A stretch of 64,000 nucleotides of DNA from positions 128,001 through 192,000 of the forward strand of contig CAWGYD010000006.1 of assembly GCA_963826785.1 (NCBI GenBank). Reading direction: 5' to 3'. Both the position numbers and the translations under genes were made by a program. Positions within the stretch are counted from its first letter, which is position 1. Each line of letters begins with the position of its first letter. Origin of the DNA: an uncultured delta proteobacterium (GTDB lineage Bacteria; Desulfobacterota; Desulfobacteria; Desulfobacterales; Desulfosalsimonadaceae). Below the pieces are notes generated by a model, which was not told the DNA's origin, did not search any database, and saw only the letters and a list, made by a program, of their open reading frames with translations. This document shows positions 37,091 through 48,345 of the stretch, in pieces.

Positions 37091-37312
37091 CTACCGTTCT
37101 CTTCCTTTTCTGATAATATCCACAATTTCTTTTGTTGTAATTTTCGCCTTGATGGACGGCACATCGAGCGGAGAAGCCATATTATTCTCCTCCGGAACCA
37201 ATGCAAAAGTTCGGCCGTCTTTTCTTCGAATCAGTACTTTTCCGGTGCTTTCCGCCTGCTCAAGCACCAGGGCCAGCTTTTGTCTGGCCTCTGAATATGT
37301 ATAGACCTGCAT
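37091..37312 (-). CDS. Phd/YefM-family antitoxin (no adjacent toxin)
   Basis: MQVYTYSEARQKLALVLEQA...VLIRRKDG. Confidence 0.85.
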   Translation of the reverse strand: MQVYTYSEARQKLALVLEQAESTGKVLIRRKDGRTFALVPEENNMASPLDVPSIKAKITTKEIVDIIRKGRER

Positions 37313-37345
37313 TTATACATCCAATATCAAATACATTTTATCCGC

Positions 37346-37374
37346 TTGACAACTGTCACGTGATTGTTTACAGT
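37346..37374 (+). promoter_or_regulatory. higBA promoter with palindromic operator
   Basis: TTGACA-17 bp-TACAGT, 6 nt before ATG; imperfect palindrome centred on TCACGTGA in the spacer. Confidence 0.65.
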
Positions 37375-37380
37375 GCATCT

Positions 37381-37662
37381 ATGATAAAAACGTTTGCTGA
37401 TAAAGAAACCCAAAAATTATTCGTTTCCGGCAAATCAAAACGCATACCTTCCGATTTATTGAGAAGGGCAATAAGGCGTTTAGAATCTATCCATTTTGCA
37501 AGTGACATAAATGACCTTTTGGTGCCTCCCAGCAACAGGCTCCATGCGCTAAAAGGCGATAGAGACGGGCAGTATTCCATATCGATAAATGACCAGTGGC
37601 GAATTTGTTTCCGTTTCATCGAAGGCGATGCTTACGATGTTGAAATAGCCGATTACCATTAA
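37381..37662 (+). CDS. higB: HigB toxin (RelE superfamily)
   Basis: MIKTFADKET, PPSNRLHALKGDRDGQYSISINDQWRICFRF, VEIADYH. Confidence 0.93.
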   Translation: MIKTFADKETQKLFVSGKSKRIPSDLLRRAIRRLESIHFASDINDLLVPPSNRLHALKGDRDGQYSISINDQWRICFRFIEGDAYDVEIADYH

Positions 37663-37673
37663 GGATTGAAACC

Positions 37674-38000
37674 ATGGCCATCCCCAATACAATAAAGCGA
37701 GAAATCAGACCGACTCATCCCGGTGAAATGCTCAGAGAAGATTTCATGCCGGACTATGGTCTTAACACAGCCTCAATGGCAGAGGCTTTAGGCGTATCAC
37801 GCCAAACCATAAATGAAATTTTAAGAGAACGACGCGCTATCAGTCCTGCTATGGCGCTCAGATTGTCACGTCTTTTTGGCAATTCACCCGAATTCTGGTT
37901 GAATATGCAGCATTCATGGGATCTTTGGGAATCAGCACAGCGATATAGTAAGGAATTATCACAAATCCAACCTCTGAATGCCGCACGAACGAATAGATAG
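37674..38000 (+). CDS. higA: HigA antitoxin
   Basis: PTHPGEMLREDF, LGVSRQTINEI, MALRLSRLFGNSPEFWLNMQ. Confidence 0.95.
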   Translation: MAIPNTIKREIRPTHPGEMLREDFMPDYGLNTASMAEALGVSRQTINEILRERRAISPAMALRLSRLFGNSPEFWLNMQHSWDLWESAQRYSKELSQIQPLNAARTNR

Positions 38001-38033
38001 AAATCTCCTCCGCCCGGACATTCATAGCATGCA

Positions 38034-38318
38034 TTATGAAATTCTCGCGACTTTGATGTTAAGCGCTTCGGCAATCCGGTTTGCCATATCAGGTATAAGT
38101 CTGCGTTTACCCCGTTCATAATCACTGATCATATTTTGCCGAATCCCAAGCTGTTCGGCAAGTTGAGATTGTGACAGGTTCGCCTTGAGCCGGGCGGCGG
38201 AAAGAAGGTTGCCGATCCTGTTTGACTGCATTTCCTTCCAGAAATCAGTTTCTTCGATAGCAATGCGTTCATCGCTATCGGAGGTAAGAATGTTCACTTC
38301 ATATTTTTTACGGTCCAT
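38034..38318 (-). CDS. XRE-family HTH protein (antitoxin-like, possibly 5'-truncated)
   Basis: LSAARLKANLSQSQLAEQLGIRQNMISDYERGKRRL. Confidence 0.75.
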   Translation of the reverse strand: MDRKKYEVNILTSDSDERIAIEETDFWKEMQSNRIGNLLSAARLKANLSQSQLAEQLGIRQNMISDYERGKRRLIPDMANRIAEALNIKVARIS

Positions 38319-39856: not shown

Positions 39857-40615
39857 TCATTTCCTTTGTTTTCCGGGGGCTGACTTTCGATAAAATTTCT
39901 TCACCTTTGCTTTGGCTGCATCTGCTTCTTCCCCTTCAACCAACTCACGTTTTAGGACTTCTGTCCGAATGATTTGTTCAATATCAGAAGTTTCCACCTT
40001 GACCCCCTCCGCAAGGCGCCGGATTTCGCGTCGAAGTAGGTTAAGAACGGGTTCGCTTAAAATCAAGTTTCCGATCACATAACGATTAATGTTTTGAACC
40101 TTTTCATAGAAATCCTCGCGGACATTTTTGCATAAGCCTTCTTTTGATAGCATGAAGAGACATTCAATATCTTTTGGGTCCTTAGGGTTTAATTTCGAAA
40201 AATCAAAACTGCATACAAGATCATGATTTATCGGCTTTTCGAAACGAATACGATAAATCCGCCATTCAAGGCCGTTTGTAAGAATTACCCACTGAACGCC
40301 TTTATTTGCCCCGTAATCTATTGCCTGCTTTACGTGGGCATCTTTCAGGTCAATCCCAATAGCTTTTGCTTCGATCAGGAACTGAGTTTTATCTTCTACC
40401 TTCACAGCCAAATCACAGTATGTTCCTCTGATTGCCAGCTCACTCGTGACTTCAAGATATTTGTCGTATCCGAAAATATCCCCGAAAATATCGTTTATAA
40501 CAGATACAGTATCTGACTCATTGACATCCCGATCTTTTGCGAGCTGGACGATTTTCTGAAATTTTGGAAGATTACTCGTAAAGCGATTAAGAACTTTCTT
40601 CGGAGCACTCGCCAT
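39857..40615 (-). CDS. Stand-alone type I restriction HsdR N-terminal-like PD-(D/E)XK nuclease
   Basis: NESDT, YCDLAV, LIEAKA, QAIDYG, WVILTNGLEWRIY. Confidence 0.85.
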   Translation of the reverse strand: MASAPKKVLNRFTSNLPKFQKIVQLAKDRDVNESDTVSVINDIFGDIFGYDKYLEVTSELAIRGTYCDLAVKVEDKTQFLIEAKAIGIDLKDAHVKQAIDYGANKGVQWVILTNGLEWRIYRIRFEKPINHDLVCSFDFSKLNPKDPKDIECLFMLSKEGLCKNVREDFYEKVQNINRYVIGNLILSEPVLNLLRREIRRLAEGVKVETSDIEQIIRTEVLKRELVEGEEADAAKAKVKKFYRKSAPGKQRK

Positions 40616-40850
40616 GTGACTCTCCTTCCTTTTGGGATTTTACATCATTCACCAATTTATTGGCCTATTCTCAGCAGGATTAAGAATCCACTCTGCAGGG
40701 AGTGGTTCCATCAGCAGTGTCGGTTTTCAAATACTCAATGATCGTACGTCGAAAATTTTCTAAGTCCGTGCCACGATTTTATTTTGGCAGGCCAAATTTT
40801 TTTTCTTACAATAGGTATGCTGTCCCCCGACAGTGTGTCTTCCGACGAAT

Positions 40851-42486
40851 TCAAGCGAATATTTTGCTGGCATTTCGGCTTTCACTATACCGCATCTTTT
40901 TTTTACGGAATTGATTTCCGTTTGTCTTCCAAGTTTCGATAGCTCGTTTGCCCAAGGTGAGCGAAATTTCGTGAAGCACATCTGGATGAGATAGCTCCTT
41001 CCACGTCTTAAATATGAAATGATCGAGGGAGAATCCATCGTCCCTGCGACGGAATATCCACAGCCCACGCCTCGCTGCAAGCGCCAGCACCGTTGACTGA
41101 AGCCGCAGTGCGTAAGACTTGGCTTGAATGAAGGCTTCCCTTAGTTCCTTCTTCGTGAATATTTCAAGTTTGCATTCTATAATTGCAACAGCCTTTTCTT
41201 CACCAGGGTGCGGGTCACCTCCCAATACATAGTCAGGGAAATTGCGTTCCCCGCGACCCATTCTACTGGGAACTGACGAATCCAATCATTCTCCTCAAAG
41301 CCAAGGCGTTTTAGTAATGGTTCAACGAGCATCTGCTCAACAGCACGTTCGTTTTCCAAATCAATATCCGGTAATTCTTCCGCAGCAGGTGCCAAAGGCA
41401 GCAGTGAGCAATCGAAATCCTTGGAACGTAACAAAGCGCATATCGCAGTATATTCCTCGGTGGAAAACGGTGTGCCGCTTGCCCCTTGGAAATGAGCTCG
41501 AACGACAGATTTTTGTCCGAGTACTGGATGGTTACGAAACTCCTTAAATGGAATAGGAACGATCCTTACGGGATGGCCAACACGAATTGCCGAATAGAAA
41601 TAAAAAAAGGGATCGTTAAAACCGTTATCCAAAGCGCGCCAAATAGAATGAAGAGAACTTCTTGGCGAAGCGCACCACATTAAAACGATATCTCCCCGGC
41701 GAGTTTCAAGGCTGCCTTGCCAAAAGCTCACGGATTTTTCTGATATCGTATCAAGGTACTCGAAATCATCATTCCCCACGCCGCCAATAAAAACCATACG
41801 CGGGATGGTAACGGCAATGGATTACTGCTGTGAATTGCAAGATACTTAGGAGCGAAATCATATAGAAAGGCATTGAGTTCTTGTGGCGAAAGCTGGTGAC
41901 GCTTACGGAATTTATAAAGTGCGCGATTGACGGCCAGATAGTAGAGCGCGCGAGCACGTTTCTGCAGCTTGCCTGGGATATCCGGAAGTGTGATGTCAAA
42001 ACATTCACAAATTTTCACGAACTCGTCGAACCGCCTTGAAAAAAAATAGGGGGCGAAGATCTCAGGGTGAGCGTCATGTAGCCCCGCGGACACAATGTCT
42101 ATTGCGCGAAAAACTTCACTGTAACCTGTTGAGTCGGGTTGCCCTCCAGCAAACACTCTCACAAAATGCTTGCCTTCAGCGGCAAAGGGCCACTCCAATC
42201 CGACATCCGCAATTTCGGTAAAAAGGTTTTCCCCATCATTCAAATCTGTAATAGTATGATCACCTGCGTAGTCTCTGATCATCCCGCGCAAATCAACTTC
42301 TTCTCGTCCACAAATTCCATTTTCCTCAGCCTTCCCGTTCGACTCTTCACAGAAAAACATCTGGAATGTATCTGTCTGAGGAACTCCAGAAGCGGAAGCC
42401 AAGTGGCCGGATAGGTCACGTTCAATAGCCGAGTGACCGTCTTTAGAATCGCGATACAAAGTCCATAAGAAACGATTGAATTCCAA
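40851..42486 (-). CDS. Putative restriction nuclease: helical N-terminus + EVE/PUA-like domain + HsdR_N-like PD-(D/E)XK domain (frameshifted at ~41790 and ~41270; 3' end uncertain)
   Basis: Three overlapping ORFs; FWQGSLETRRGDIVLMW; ERAVEQMLVEPLLKRLGF, FPDYVL, IIECKL, QAKSYA. Confidence 0.75.
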
Positions 42487-42530
42487 TGTTCATTCTCATA
42501 GATATTCGATGAATAGTATTATGCTTGTCC

Positions 42531-42629
42531 GGGCTAACGACCAAGGTTACCTGCGCCGCCACTGAGCTTGCCGCGTCAGGGCCGCCACGCTTCTCGGCGT
42601 CAAGTGAACCGCCATATAGAGGTTCGGCG
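42531..42629 (-). mobile_element. Integron attC site (end of NucS-like cassette)
   Basis: Minus strand CGCCGAAC...GGTTCACTTGACGCCG...CGGCGCAGGTAACC-TTGGTC-GTTAGCC; inverse core complementary to the cassette's own 5' core GTTCGGCG; R''-L'' spacer longer than canonical. Confidence 0.75.
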
Positions 42630-42637
42630 TCAGCCGT

Positions 42638-43686
42638 TTATTTTAATTCATGGCTTTCAATGGCTGTTGCCACCTTCTCCATCCAGCCAATAAGTATTTG
42701 AATTTCTATGTTGTTGAACTTGCGGTTTATCAAAGCTTTGAGTTCTCTGCCTGCCGGTTGAAATAGACCTGTTGCCTGCGCCTCTTGCCAAAGTACATTC
42801 ATTTCTGATTCTGGGACGTCCAATTTACTCAGGAGCCCGCCTCTACCGATAAGGGCCGTGTAAACTGACTGTTTGAAAACTGCTTTTGGCGGATAGCCGT
42901 AGCAAATGGCGACATGTACACCATTTTTGTCAACGTTCAGTGAGAAACCCTTTGTCCCCCAGTGAAGGGGAAATGATTTCTCTGCTGCAAACTTGAGCAG
43001 TTGGCCGAAAACTTCTTTGCCGTTCGTGTCCAAAGACTCCATGAATGAATCTTGCGAGACAATCGGCAAGGCCCCGGAGGTTATTTGTTTTATTTTTGTT
43101 GGTTCTTTCCCAACTACAATGTCATAGGAAAAAGATGCTTGCCTCCATTCGCCTGAAAATAAGAAAACTCAAGGCATGTGACTCTCATGCCTTTTCTGCG
43201 TAGGAAAGATGCCGTTTGTCGAATTTCTCCAGTGACTCGTTGGCCAACGAGGACAATACGCTGCTCTTTATTGAAGGAAACAGCTTCATCTGAAGTGAGT
43301 TCAAAATAATTTCTATGATAGCTGGCAAGGTTTAGTGCCTCGTCACTTACATAACGCTGGAGAATTTCTTCTAACTGATCGGTGTCAAGTTCCTCCACAA
43401 ATGATGCATATTCCAATGCCTGGGCCAAAGTGTCACGAGGGGTTCTGTCCCGTTTCAATTCGATAACGACAGTATTTCCTTCCCTGTCAATTCCTAAAAG
43501 ATCGATTATACTCCCAAGATTTGTTGTGACCTGCCGGCCAATAATGAGGAGTTTGCCGTCTTCAAGAATATCGTCGGCGTTACTTTCAAGCCAATTTTCT
43601 AATATCGATTCCTCATGGTCGACATGGAAATGGGTTTGAGAGAACTCCTCAAATTTGCCGTCTTCTTTGATGCTGAATATTCTCAT
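42638..43686 (-). CDS. NucS/DUF91-like endonuclease domain protein (frameshifted at ~43125)
   Basis: ESILENWL, IGRQV, IDLLGIDREGNTVVIELKR, QALEYASF; C-terminal domain in ORF 42638-43069. Confidence 0.8.
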
Positions 43687-43696
43687 ATGCCTTTAT

Positions 43697-43755
43697 CGCC
43701 GAACACTAAAATCACAGGCGCATGCTGTTTTGCGTCCTGCGCTTATGGTTAGAGC
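43697..43755 (-). mobile_element. Integron attC site (end of TIR cassette)
   Basis: Minus strand GCTCTAAC (contains TIR stop) CATAAGCGCAGGACGCA...TGCGCCTGTGAT-TTTAGT-GTTCGGCG. Confidence 0.75.
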
Positions 43756-44455
43756 GCAACCAGCTCGGCGAGCTTGGCCGCGACGTCTGCCATCGACTCT
43801 TCTGCAGTGCTCAGGCCGCTTCGCGAGGCCGAGCAGGGGGCTGACTTCGCGGAGAGCTTCATACGTCGTCCCGTGCACGAATGGGAACGAGCCGCTCACG
43901 CGCGAGGAGTGCCGAAAGTTCTTTGTCAGCGATGCCCTCTGCTGGAAGGCGGCGCAGCAGCGCAGGGGTCACCAGCACGATCCCGACTTGCGAGTTCGCC
44001 AAGCCCTTGTCGATTGCGCGGAGCAACGGCACGCCGAGGCCAACGTCCTTCTCGCTGAACCAGACCGAGACACCGCGTGACTCCAGCAGATCGTGCAGCT
44101 CCTTGGCGGCCCCCTGCCGGTCGTCCCACGCGTGGCATAGGAAGACATCCCGAAGGTCAGGCAGCTTCGCTAGGTTCTCGACGCTGTTGCGGACCGGCGT
44201 GAGTGCCCGCACCTCGTCAGGCGTGTAAGCACACTGACGAACCGGCTGGCGACCAGCGCGGCCTTGCGCTGCTGCCGGACCCGCCGCCGCTGCTCCGGCC
44301 GCCCCCGCTGCTCCCGACGAGGAGTAGGACGGGGACGAGTACGACCCGTAGCTGCTGTAGCCGCCGTAGCGGCCATAGCGGCTACCGCATGCAGGGCAGT
44401 TCGCTGCGGCGCTCGCTGAGCGATGGCCCTATACTGGTGCTGTGCATCTAGCCAT
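43749..44455 (-). CDS. TIR-domain protein with N-terminal Cys/His knuckle and Gly/Ser/Tyr linker (in-frame TAG at codon 9 and several indels in this sequence)
   Basis: MARCTAPV*GHRSASAAANCPAC; DVFLCHAWDD, VSVWFSE, IDKGL, ADKELSAL; C-terminus HGTTYEALREVSPLL...AAKLAELVAL*. Confidence 0.8.
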
Positions 44456-44482
44456 TTCTTCTACCTTCCAGTTGTACTGATT

Positions 44483-44490
44483 GCTCTAAC
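44483..44490 (-). mobile_element. 5' core site of first cassette (attI-like or secondary insertion junction)
   Basis: GTTAGAGC on minus strand, exact complement of GCTCTAAC at the TIR stop; no attC hairpin upstream. Confidence 0.6.
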
Positions 44491-44559
44491 AATTTCTTCT
44501 AAGGATTTACGCCAGATATCACGCAGCCAGGCATGTTATCCAGAAAGAAAGCAGTTTCA

Positions 44560-45831
44560 TCATCCCAACGCCCCATTCCACACCTCGAAATGGTACTGAT
44601 TGTTCTCCTCCTTGCGGTAGAAGGCAATGTAGGTCAGCACTTTCCAGCCGATGAACTCCCGGTTGGCCGGATCCAGAGCGACCCGGTTCCAGGTCTGGCG
44701 CCAGGTGCCCGTGTTGAAGTAGATCCGGTTCCGGATGTCGCCGGGGCCGGCCGGGACCTGGTCCATGGGCAGGATCAGGTGGTCGTGGGTGTGCCCGTAT
44801 ATCACGCAGTCCGCCTCGCCGGAGCGCACTTTCGGCTCGGCAAGGGCGCGCCGGTGATAGTCGCCTTCCATGGCCGACGGGAAATACCGGGTTTTGAAAT
44901 CCGCGATCGATTCCAGGAGCCGCTTGGAGATCCGGGAGGAAAGGTGCAGGGCGATCTGCAGCTTGTCGATGGCGTCCGGCCGGAAGGGGACATCCATGTG
45001 TTTGATGAAGGGGATTTTGAAAAATTCATCCACGCAGGCGCACCAGACCGCTTCGACGGCCTTGCGGGCCGCATCGTTTTGGATGCGGTTGAGCGTCATC
45101 AGGACCCAGCAGGGAACATCCAGCAGGGGGCGGACGTTGTCGATCTCCTTGAGATTTTCCACGATCTCCGCCCTGCCGCCCGGCGTGACCGCCCCTTTAT
45201 CCACAAGGCCGTCCAGCGCCCGCCCGGCCTCCTCCGGGAACCGGTTCAACAGGTCGATGACAATGGCGTCGCCGATGGAGGAGCTGTCCCGGCTCCCCAT
45301 GCAGTTGAGGTCGTCGTACCTGTCGCCGTGCCGGGCGATGGTCCGGTAAGCCGGGTCGAAAATCTCCTCCGGGAAGGTCGGGGCGGCTGCGGCATCCGGC
45401 ATCCCCAGGGCTTCGGCTGCCAGGCGCCTGGTTTCCGGATACCGGTTGATCAGCCAGTCGTGGTTGCCGATGACATAGTGCATCTCAAAATTGATCGACT
45501 GTTTTTGCGCGAAATCCCGAAGGGCGTTCAAGTGGGAGAGCGATTTTTTGTTTTCCCGGATGATCCCGTCCAGGATGGCCGTGACCATGGCCTGCTGCTC
45601 CGGGCCGGGGTCCGACCAGGGCCGGACCGCCCCATCCAGCCACCGGGTGGACCGGATCACGTCAAAGATATCCCCCAGCAGCACGATTTTGAGCTCGGAC
45701 ACGGTGCTTTTCCGGTTGACGGTCTTGACCAGGTTTTTCAGGTTGTCGCAAAACAGCGCAAAAGCCCCCGGGCGGATGGTCCGGCCCGAGGTGCCGTCGG
45801 TGAGGTGGGTATCGCTGATAAACACTTGCAT
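44560..45831 (-). CDS. Calcineurin-like metallophosphoesterase
   Basis: ISDTH, LGDIFD, GNHD, HGD, GHTH, NTGTW. Confidence 0.88.
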   Translation of the reverse strand: MQVFISDTHLTDGTSGRTIRPGAFALFCDNLKNLVKTVNRKSTVSELKIVLLGDIFDVIRSTRWLDGAVRPWSDPGPEQQAMVTAILDGIIRENKKSLSHLNALRDFAQKQSINFEMHYVIGNHDWLINRYPETRRLAAEALGMPDAAAAPTFPEEIFDPAYRTIARHGDRYDDLNCMGSRDSSSIGDAIVIDLLNRFPEEAGRALDGLVDKGAVTPGGRAEIVENLKEIDNVRPLLDVPCWVLMTLNRIQNDAARKAVEAVWCACVDEFFKIPFIKHMDVPFRPDAIDKLQIALHLSSRISKRLLESIADFKTRYFPSAMEGDYHRRALAEPKVRSGEADCVIYGHTHDHLILPMDQVPAGPGDIRNRIYFNTGTWRQTWNRVALDPANREFIGWKVLTYIAFYRKEENNQYHFEVWNGALG

Positions 45832-46315: not shown

Positions 46316-46610
46316 CTACTCCACATGCAAGGCATCAAGAACAGCGCCGGGGTTTTTTGATGCGATTCGCAGCAAGGCCTTGGCCGGGCCTTCGGGTTTT
46401 CTTCTGCCCTGCTCCCAGTTCTGTAATGTACGCACACTGACGCCAATCATAAGCGCGAATTCATTCTGGGACACATTGAGTTTTTCTCTCACAGCCCTGA
46501 TTTCAGGTGGTTTGATTTCAGATACACGGCCTGGCGCCTTGCGGCCGGCCTTTATCTCGCCGGCTTCCTTGATGCTGGCGAACTAATTTTTCAAATTTTT
46601 CATTTTTCAT
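46316..46610 (-). CDS. NadS/HigA2-like HTH antitoxin (frameshift at ~46580)
   Basis: MKNEKFEKLV / ASIKEAGEIKAG...VREKLNVSQNEFALMIGVSVRTLQNWEQGRRKPEGPAKALL...VE* (read manually; absent from ORF track). Confidence 0.85.
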
Positions 46611-46920
46611 GATAATAATTCCCTGACCAGTTTACGGAGCAGCTTGAGCTGGTCCGACGTCAAATCTTCTTTTTCAGTCTTCCGATATGGAAAGAGCATG
46701 AAAATTTTTTCAGGAGGATCCCAATAATAAATGATTCGCAATGCACCTCTTTTCCACGAGCAGGGAGATTCCAACGAATTTTCCGCAAGCCGCCACTTCC
46801 CTTTATCAGATTTCCGGCATCCGGCCGAAGCATCAATGAAGTTTGAAGCATCCGATAATGATCGTCGGATATCAGAGTTTGAATTTCCTTCGTGAAAATG
46901 GAAGTTTCGATGAAAATCAT
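46607..46920 (-). CDS. RelE/HigB2-type toxin (frameshift at ~46765)
   Basis: MIFIETSIFTKEI...PDAGNLIKGSGGLRKIRW / GKRGALRIIYYW...PYRKTEKEDL. Confidence 0.88.
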
Positions 46921-46926
46921 AACAGG

Positions 46927-46954
46927 ATGATACGCCATTGGCGTATTTTGTCAA
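46927..46954 (-). promoter_or_regulatory. Toxin promoter with perfect operator palindrome
   Basis: TTGACA-16 bp-TATCAT, 6 nt before ATG; ATACGCCA-T-TGGCGTAT at 46930-46946. Confidence 0.7.
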
Positions 46955-46991
46955 GCCATCCTATTTGAAACAAATAAAAACAGGTACTCCT

Positions 46992-47775
46992 ATGAATCTT
47001 CCCATCTACCAGATCGATGCGTTTACGGGCAAACTGTTTGCCGGAAATCCGGCGGCCGTGGTGATTTGCGAATCGAAGCTTTCGAGCGAGCTGATGCAGG
47101 CGATTGCCTCGGAAAACAACCTCTCTGAAACCGCTTTTGTGGAGGGCCGGGAAGGGGCGCTTCAGATCCGGTGGTTTACGCCGGCAGTGGAGGTGGACCT
47201 GTGCGGGCATGCCACCCTGGCCGCGGCCCATGTCCTGTTCAACCATCGCGGTTTTGCCGCGCCGAAGGTGACCTTTTCCTCAAAAAGCGGGCCCCTGCAT
47301 GTCCGGCGGGAGGGGGAGGTGCTCTATCTGGATTTTCCGGCCGATTCGATTTCTGCGGTCGAGCCGCCCGGGGAATTGATCCGCGGGCTGGGGGAAACGC
47401 CCTCGGAAGTCTTTCGGGGCAGAGACGACTACCTGGCCGTCTTCGATTCCGAGGCGCAGATTGCCGCGCTGAATCCGGACATGGCGCATGCTTGCCCGGG
47501 TGCCTTCCCGAGGGGTGATCGTCTCCGCCCGGGGCAGCGACGTTGACTTTGTCTCCCGGTTTTTTGCGCCCCGGGTGGGCGTTTCCGAAGACCCGGTGAC
47601 CGGGTCGGCCCACACCACCCTCATCCCCTACTGGTCTGCGCGGCTGTCCAAAAAGGAGATGCGGGCGAAGCAGGTCTCAAAGCGCGGCGGGGAGCTGGTC
47701 TGCCGGGACCTTGGGGAGCGGGTGGAGATCGGCGGGAGGGCGGTTACGTATCTTACCGGGGAAATCCGGATTTGA
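46992..47775 (+). CDS. PhzF-family isomerase (frameshift at ~47487)
   Basis: IDAFT..GNPAAV, LSETAF, EVDLCGHATLA, EDPVTGSAH. Confidence 0.92.
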
Positions 47776-47778
47776 TTT

Positions 47779-48075
47779 TTATGATTTCGGCTCCAACGAA
47801 CCATTCAGATATTTATGCACAATGCTTGAAATAAGTGTTTGATAAGGTATGCCTTCTTCAATTGCCTTGATCTGGATTCGATGATAATCCTTTTGAGAAA
47901 GACGAAGATTGATTCGTTTATCCTTTTTCAAAGTATTTCGAGCAGCTTCTATTGCTTTTTTTCTTTCCTGATCAGAATTTTTAACCGGCTGCCACTCATC
48001 ACGTTCAATTGATTCCATCAGGTCTTTTTCTTCCTGATCGATTGGCTTAAATGCCTTTTTTTTGATTTTATTCAT
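47779..48075 (-). CDS. BrnA/CopG-like ribbon-helix-helix antitoxin
   Basis: KDKRINLRLS...KAIEEGIPYQTLISSIVH. Confidence 0.88.
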   Translation of the reverse strand: MNKIKKKAFKPIDQEEKDLMESIERDEWQPVKNSDQERKKAIEAARNTLKKDKRINLRLSQKDYHRIQIKAIEEGIPYQTLISSIVHKYLNGSLEPKS

Positions 48076-48345
48076 CTATTCCCCCTTCAAGCCATATTTT
48101 TTGGTGTATTTCCGGCTTGGAAAAGCTGTTTTTAAAAATATCTCATCCTCATTTTCCACGTAAGGTACGATGATGGCATAATGGTCGATTTCTAAAACAT
48201 ACATCCTTTGATCGGGATACCCTGGATTTTCCTCGATTCCGATTACCTGGCCAGACTCGATTAAATATGCGATTTCCTCAAAGGATATCCCTCTTTCGCG
48301 TTTTAAGATTTCATTTTTCCCCAGATTCCAATTCAAATATTTCAT
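48076..48345 (-). CDS. BrnT-family toxin
   Basis: WNLGKNEILKRERGISFEEI, IFLKTAFPSRKYT. Confidence 0.88.
   Translation of the reverse strand: MKYLNWNLGKNEILKRERGISFEEIAYLIESGQVIGIEENPGYPDQRMYVLEIDHYAIIVPYVENEDEIFLKTAFPSRKYTKKYGLKGE

What the first reader, a model, noticed from the sequence alone, without database searches (positions are those of the whole stretch)
40851..44490. Integrase-less integron cassette array loaded with defence-like genes
Seen on the minus strand: cassette 1 starts G/TTAGAGC (44490) and its TIR gene ends in GCTCTAAC plus an attC hairpin. Cassette 2 starts G/TTCGGCG and its NucS-like gene is followed by CGCCGAAC plus attC. Cassette 3 starts G/TTAGCCC before the EVE-nuclease gene, and its attC is missing. 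Each complete cassette's ends are exact complements, genes are co-oriented, and GC content jumps between cassettes. No intI is in the window. Known: such arrays are called CALINs, and integron cassettes often encode anti-phage genes. Inference: a small defence island built by a trans-acting integron integrase, whose cargo are candidate single-gene defence systems.
Basis: partly seen in the sequence, partly recalled or inferred. Interest (0 to 1): 0.8.

Follow-up and report, generated by a model that had tools for sequence, protein, structure and literature searches.

The report
Small integrase-less integron cassette array
This is a real but common kind of small mobile-gene cluster, made of two gene cassettes and a third gene and lying far from its integrase; all three genes look anti-phage but are broken in this assembly, and only the third, an unclassified predicted DNA-cutting enzyme also carried by temperate phages, deserves follow-up.

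Summary
The array is real. Cassettes 1 (TIR) and 2 (NucS-like nuclease) have exactly complementary 8-nt cores. Relatives 93-96% alike break off at the same G/TT junction in environmental contigs, and relatives of cassette 2 are attC cassettes elsewhere. Both attC sites are atypical and fold weakly.

No intI lies in the window. The genome holds two on other contigs, both broken in this assembly. The upstream site resembles none of the genome's three attI sites and fits an attG (GWT) off-target insertion. Two-attC CALINs are common (1362 of 2961 in one survey), and defence cassettes are published.

All three genes carry frameshifts; whether from sequencing error or decay is undecided. Gene 3 has no attC, and its cassette status is open. 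Its fold is EVE plus PD-(D/E)xK nuclease, with an N-terminal domain weakly like archaeal 8-oxoG glycosylase. It matches no PADLOC or NCBIfam family. In 67 of 80 viral loci it sits directly behind a repressor-type gene. It is a good candidate modification-dependent restriction nuclease.

Verdict: a new member of a known kind, with one cargo family worth testing.

The parts
44560..45831 (-). Metallophosphoesterase gene, intact, 62% GC; chromosomal neighbour upstream of the array
   Evidence: Pfam Metallophos; collinear with a 419-aa homolog; in 3 of 3 homolog loci seen, no cassette follows
44483..44559 (-). Insertion site ending in TG/TT at 44490; attG-like, unlike the genome's attI sites
   Evidence: 17, 17 and 20 of 70 nt identical to the C8, C1 and C5 attI regions, against 64 of 70 between C8 and C1; no attC-type fold (z 0.53); GWT consensus from 10.1101/2022.09.11.507474
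43705..44490 (-). Cassette 1 (786 nt, 64.5% GC)
   Evidence: Complementary cores GTTAGAGC/GCTCTAAC; contigs of relatives end at the junction at 43702
43749..44455 (-). TIR-domain gene (family about 235 aa); stop at codon 9 and four indels as assembled
   Evidence: Pfam TIR_2 E 3.7e-15; PADLOC ThsB1 PDLC00424 E 1.9e-64; breaks mapped against intact homologs
43697..43755 (-). attC1, 59 nt, short type with a shortened left arm
   Evidence: Circular form folds at z -2.6; aligns with short attC sites of C1 and L219; missed by model R1
42539..43704 (-). Cassette 2 (1166 nt, 45.5% GC)
   Evidence: Cores GTTCGGCG/CGCCGAAC; same 7-nt cores around the homolog in G356; relatives at about 96% start exactly at 43704
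42638..43686 (-). NucS-like PD-(D/E)xK nuclease gene (350 aa in homologs); one frameshift near 43125
   Evidence: Pfam NucS_C E 3.7e-6; PADLOC PDC-S11 E 7.6e-41 over the N-terminal half; tblastn
42531..42629 (-). attC2, 99 nt, with an 11-nt left spacer
   Evidence: Best R1 hit in the window, 19.1 bits; spacing; fold no better than shuffles
40851..42486 (-). Gene 3: unclassified N-terminal domain, EVE domain and HsdR-N-type PD-(D/E)xK nuclease; two frameshifts as assembled; no attC
   Evidence: 70-82% identical in three pieces to intact P0012; fold of a homolog; phage homolog L156 matches phrog_37753
40810..40827 (-). GGGGACA-type motif where attC3 would be; like the sequence upstream of a Y1-transposase gene on C4
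   Evidence: its role is inferred only
39857..40615 (-).
   Evidence: Pfam HSDR_N_2 E 1.2e-7; found in 1 of 200 other same-order genomes

Best explanation
This is a small CALIN made by an integron integrase acting in trans. IntI, encoded elsewhere in this lineage, recombined the folded bottom strand of circular cassettes with a double-stranded TGTT site 70 nt behind a metallophosphoesterase gene (an attG-type off-target site). Cassettes 2 and 1 went in one after the other or as one two-cassette circle. Gene 3 is either an older cassette that lost its attC or a stand-alone mobile gene in front of which they landed. With no promoter of its own, the array is probably read through from the upstream gene. 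The cargo was most likely anti-phage: a TIR protein, a NucS-like nuclease, and a modification-dependent nuclease whose EVE domain would bind modified bases in phage DNA and whose PD-(D/E)xK domain would cut it. Shown: cassette boundaries, independent occurrence of cassettes 1 and 2, intI genes on other contigs, domain content. Inferred: the attG route, expression and every defence function.
Against: No empty site was found: the genome has no same-genus relative, and the upstream gene is not syntenic in those searched. GWT is too short to be diagnostic. Both intI copies are broken in the assembly. Both attC sites are atypical and fold weakly. All three genes are frameshifted, whereas the flanking genes, rpoB and gyrB are intact. 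Gene 3 relatives are rarely attC-borne: 3 of 79 metagenome loci and 1 of 4 genome loci by the model. Only 1 of 27 viral TIR loci has an attC beside it. The promoter scan is at chance level.
Confidence: 0.6

Rival explanations
1. Remnant of a complete integron whose intI and attI were deleted or moved away, leaving the tail of its array.
For: This genome has an attI-plus-array without intI on C1 and a truncated intI on C8; both attC sites look worn.
Against: No intI or attI trace upstream: only 70 nt separate the array from an intact gene; cassette 1 starts with its own intact core.
Confidence: 0.2
2. The 70-nt site is a dedicated solo attI or attG hotspot, used repeatedly by the trans-acting IntI, so the array still grows here.
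For: Two or three cassette junctions stack behind one G/TT; hotspots among attG sites are described.
Against: No likeness to the three attI regions; no convincing match in 200 same-order genomes; one insertion of a two-cassette circle explains the same picture.
Confidence: 0.12
3. Whatever its origin, the array is now dead: the frameshifts are real and the cargo gives no defence.
For: At least 7 indels and one stop in 3.6 kb against none in the upstream gene, gene 4, a 2.3-kb cyclase gene, rpoB or gyrB; the TIR lacks a ThsA partner by two searches.
Against: Most breaks lie in short homopolymer runs, as long-read errors do. Split reading frames also occur in nearby metabolic genes (not aligned) and in the C5 and C8 cassettes. 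Related contigs lack several of the same extra bases (table 4).
Confidence: 0.35
4. Assembly chimera: cassettes from another community member were joined into this contig.
For: No laid contig spans the junction at 44490; cassette 1 is foreign in GC.
Against: The junctions fall exactly on G/TT crossover points; the locus lies inside a 1.12-Mb contig of an 11-contig genome with 1.8% contamination.
Confidence: 0.05

Closest known systems
CALIN / SALIN and attG insertion (Loot et al., 10.1101/2022.09.11.507474; passages read)
   Same: Two attC sites with no integrase nearby, co-oriented promoterless genes, insertion at a GWT motif; 1362 of 2961 CALINs in that survey have two cassettes.
   Different: Nothing in kind. 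The attC sites here are atypical, and the route is inferred, not shown.
Anti-phage integron cassettes (Darracq et al., 10.1101/2024.07.02.601686, abstract and passages; Kieffer et al., 10.1101/2024.07.02.601719, passages)
   Same: Cassettes with compact defence-like genes, including ThsB-like and restriction-like proteins.
   Different: These three families are not named in the passages seen (no whole-word TIR, NucS or EVE in either main text); they are untested and broken as assembled.
EVE-PD(D/E)XK type IV restriction endonucleases (Bell et al., PMC7641849, section 9 and passages) and the EVE-HNH enzyme VcaM4I (PDB 6yex)
   Same: EVE sensor fused to a nuclease, with no methyltransferase in the array.
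   Different: Extra N-terminal domain of about 240 aa; HsdR-N-type nuclease instead of HNH; no PADLOC or NCBIfam match; frequent in prophage immunity regions.
END nucleases (Yee et al., 10.1101/2025.03.31.646159; abstract, section 9 and passages)
   Same: A nuclease with a possibly inactive Ogg/EndoIII-like domain; their END-Mag resembles archaeal Ogg, as the gene 3 N-terminal model weakly does.
Thoeris ThsB (PADLOC PDLC00424)
   Same: Full-length match of the intact TIR homolog P0141, E 1.3e-128.
   Different: No ThsA beside it, and none found in the 88%-complete genome.

Membership tests
CALIN | At least two attC sites on one strand within a few kb | tested here: met
   attC1 43755-43697 and attC2 42629-42531; both atypical, and attC1 is missed by my 10-sequence model
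CALIN | No intI nearby | tested here: met
   No TIGR02249 or PF00589 match in C6:128001-192000
CALIN | Detection by the IntegronFinder attC model | not testable with these tools
   Rfam at gathering scores gave 0 matches in the window; IntegronFinder is not among the tools
Integron cassette (1 and 2) | Complementary R-box cores and exchange of neighbours at G/TT | tested here: met
   the unaligned letters themselves were not displayed
Integron cassette (gene 3) | Own attC behind the gene | tested here: not met
   No complementary core and no model hit after 40851; some relatives are cassettes (L016, L019, L062, L219)
attI-bearing array (In0 remnant) | attI at the head of the array | tested here: inconclusive
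   Unlike the genome's three attI regions, but attI sequences differ between integrases (22-23 of 70 nt between C5 and the others)
Thoeris | ThsB with a ThsA effector | tested here: inconclusive
   No ThsA adjacent; STALD and SIR2_2 not found in an 88%-complete genome, and the STALD control rang nowhere
EVE-PD(D/E)XK type IV restriction endonuclease (gene 3) | EVE/PUA domain | tested here: met
EVE-PD(D/E)XK type IV restriction endonuclease (gene 3) | PD-(D/E)xK nuclease with catalytic residues | tested here: met
EVE-PD(D/E)XK type IV restriction endonuclease (gene 3) | Cuts modified and not unmodified DNA | not testable with these tools
   Needs biochemistry
END nuclease (gene 3) | Inactive EndoIII/Ogg-like sensor domain | tested here: inconclusive

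The most novel reading that the evidence does not exclude
Gene 3 is a member of an undescribed single-gene anti-phage family (phrog_37753): a nuclease with two modified-base sensors, an inactive Ogg/EndoIII-like domain and an EVE domain, fused to an HsdR-type nuclease. It is spread by integron cassettes and by temperate phages, which place it directly behind their repressor so that lysogens cut invading phages with hypermodified DNA.
Probability: 0.3. Interest if true: 0.6.

Novelty: new member of a known kind. Interest (0 to 1): 0.36.

Why it matters
The array itself adds one more environmental example to two published ideas: cassettes land outside integrons, and cassettes carry defence genes. 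The useful lead is gene 3. Its family has at least 531 proteins, is invisible to PADLOC and NCBIfam, and has an EVE-nuclease fold and a prophage-immunity-region context. If it restricts modified phage DNA with two sensors, it would widen the type IV/END nuclease group and give a new probe for DNA modifications. Intact natural homologs make it directly testable.

Tried and rejected
Rfam: no match in the window.

A 27-nt match of the cassette 2 end to C7 lies inside a gene and was rejected. A 32-nt match of the upstream site to genome G578 (E 2e-6) lies inside a cyclase gene; the window's own homolog of that gene has different DNA there, so it was taken as chance.

Empty site: not found in 60 relatives, in 200 same-order genomes or in four runs. 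The small word shares say nothing about habitat.

The 60 nt upstream of cassette 1 and the stretch after gene 3 do not fold as attC (z 0.53 and -1.53). The loose form of the GGGGACA motif is at chance level (11 found, 5-12 in shuffles).

For the N-terminal domain of gene 3, Foldseek, the PDB sequence search and two Atlas searches gave no named family above noise; the best was DUF8425 at 0.89, a lead only. My motif test for integrases in viral loci scored 0 of 80 and was faulty: PHROGs found integrases in 3 of 3 checked. A Foldseek search of the full gene 3 model was not obtained.

Paper searches for phrog_37753 or DUF8425 found nothing, and a six-term prophage/EVE search found one review. Earlier scan notes: none.

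Full report
Observation. The window is G000:C6:128001-192000. Exact 8-nt complementarity at such distances occurs for 13 of 799 GTT 8-mers on that strand; here it occurs twice in a row, each time at a stop codon. GC is 64.5%, 45.5% and 46.5% for the three units, against 62% and 59% for the flanking genes, so only the first step is a jump. A fourth, intact HSDR_N nuclease gene (40615-39857, 41% GC) extends the island.

The attC sites. Rfam gave no match. I built a covariance model from 10 attC sites of the genome's other arrays, leaving out the window. It ranks attC2 first of 6 window matches (19.1 bits, E 0.023) and misses attC1; neither appears among the 12 genome-wide hits. attC2 has an 11-nt left spacer, and attC1 aligns with short attC sites from C1 and L219 but lacks a few bases in its left arm. 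Only the circular form of attC1 folds better than shuffles. Both sites are therefore recognisable but worn, or damaged by sequencing error.

Mobility. Contigs of runs X1 and X2 (one study) match cassette 2 with 14 differences in 337 nt and 17 in 420 nt. Both start exactly at 43704 and carry 32 unaligned letters before it. Other contigs match the TIR end and attC1 down to 43702 and carry 16 and 25 unaligned letters beyond (table 8; the letters themselves were not shown). The two cassettes thus occur with other neighbours, breaking at the crossover. Gene 2 has close homologs in 3 of 400 same-phylum genomes. Two of them have GCCGAAC and an attC after the stop, and one also has GTTCGGC before the start. 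The TIR family is very large (7962 of 8000 scored candidates at E <= 1e-30; 210 plasmid records), but it was not found in 400 other same-phylum genomes, and 1 of 27 viral loci has an attC beside it.

Integrase and insertion site. No intI lies in the window. C5 carries an intI over the TIGR02249 cut-off with its array downstream in the same orientation, but the assembly lacks model positions 249-269, the stretch that by my recall holds the catalytic HxxR motif. C8 carries the first half of an intI cut by a lexA-like gene (named by my reading of the sequence), with a normal attI and array. C1 has an array with a nearly identical attI and no intI. The window's site shares only 17-20 of 70 nt with these regions and reads TGTT, which fits the GWT/TGWT attG consensus. 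Loot et al. propose such insertion for small CALINs and count 1362 two-cassette cases among 2961 (10.1101/2022.09.11.507474, passages). No empty site was found, so the route stays inferred. The only promoter-like site upstream on this strand lies ahead of the metallophosphoesterase gene, and no terminator-like site separates that gene from the array, but both scans are at chance level.

State of the genes. The TIR gene has a stop at codon 9 and four indels, gene 2 one frameshift and gene 3 two. Most breaks lie in short homopolymer runs, and related contigs lack several of the same extra bases. Cassettes on C5 and C8 and some nearby metabolic genes also appear split (not aligned). Against this, rpoB, gyrB, the upstream gene, gene 4 and a 2.3-kb cyclase gene are intact. 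Error or decay is undecided.

Where gene 3 relatives sit. By the model, an attC adjoins them in 3 of 79 metagenome loci (one duplicate locus, L084, left out), 1 of 4 genome loci (a Treponema array that also holds Thoeris) and the 1 same-phylum homolog found in 400 genomes. One more, L055, looks like a cassette by eye. Many loci have short flanks and the model is insensitive, so these are minimum counts, but most relatives are not cassettes. In viral contigs 137 stretches encode relatives, of which 80 were kept. In 75 of the 80 an upstream gene could be picked, and 67 of those match PHROG repressor or regulator families. An integrase follows in 3 of 3 checked. These loci are related: 77 proteins fall into 28 clusters at 95% and 9 at 80% identity. 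A place behind the repressor is, by established knowledge of temperate phages, one expressed in lysogens and often used for defence genes. Where attC3 would be, the window has a GGGGACA-type motif like one upstream of a Y1-transposase gene on C4; it also follows the last attC of the C1 array. Its role is unknown.

Comparison with what is known. Defence cassettes are published (10.1101/2024.07.02.601686, abstract and passages; 10.1101/2024.07.02.601719, passages). EVE-PD(D/E)XK fusions are described as putative type IV enzymes (PMC7641849, section 9 and passages). Nucleases with an inactive Ogg/EndoIII sensor are the END nucleases (10.1101/2025.03.31.646159, abstract, section 9 and passages). 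PMC6765204 was seen only as a search listing. Searches for phrog_37753 and DUF8425 found no paper, and a prophage/EVE search found one review. Supplements were not read and may list the family.

Verdict. A genuine small CALIN, most likely made in trans at an off-target site (0.6), with defence-like cargo that is broken as assembled. As an element it is a new member of a known kind. Interest 0.36, carried mainly by gene 3; the dual-sensor reading has probability 0.3 and would deserve 0.6.

Noticed in passing
G000:C5:189246-195312 (L008): Integron with its array downstream of intI in the same orientation (an inverted-integrase group is mentioned in PMC3575428, passage). The intI lacks model positions 249-269 in the assembly. 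Cargo includes a type IIG R-M match and a probable toxin-antitoxin pair.
   Followed up: partly
G000:C8:211137-217500 (L009): intI cut in half by a lexA-like gene that overlaps its end; the array carries a Shedu match (E 2.4e-206) and a PDC-S02 match.
   Followed up: partly
G000:C1:826300-828723 (L007): Array with an attI 64 of 70 nt identical to the C8 attI but no intI; three attC sites.
   Followed up: partly
G000:C3:168047-168119 and C6:1065840-1065918: Single attC sites (SALIN-like); the first follows a probable toxin-antitoxin pair, the second is a weak model hit.
   Followed up: no
G000:C4:322486-323640: Decayed integrase C-terminus, a Y1 transposase gene and a degenerate attC-like site in a row.
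   Followed up: partly
window 40827-40810; C1:828750; C4:236704; C6:299829-298721: A GGGGACA-type motif marks edges of accessory DNA: the ends of two integrase-less arrays, both sides of a probable toxin-antitoxin module, and upstream of a Y1 transposase. A looser look-alike lies just upstream of gene 3 (about 42530-42510). The loose pattern is at chance level.
   Followed up: partly
window 37091-38318 and 46607-48345: Several antitoxin- and toxin-like genes (Phd/YefM, HTH_3, CopG, BrnT matches) flank the array within 4 kb on both sides.
   Followed up: no
L016:850-7368: Treponema cassette array holding Thoeris (ThsA and ThsB) and a gene 3 homolog.
   Followed up: partly
L137-L216: Gene 3 homologs in low-GC temperate phages (35-38% in 8 loci shown) lie behind the repressor, often near the integrase; phrog_37753 has no known function.
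   Followed up: yes
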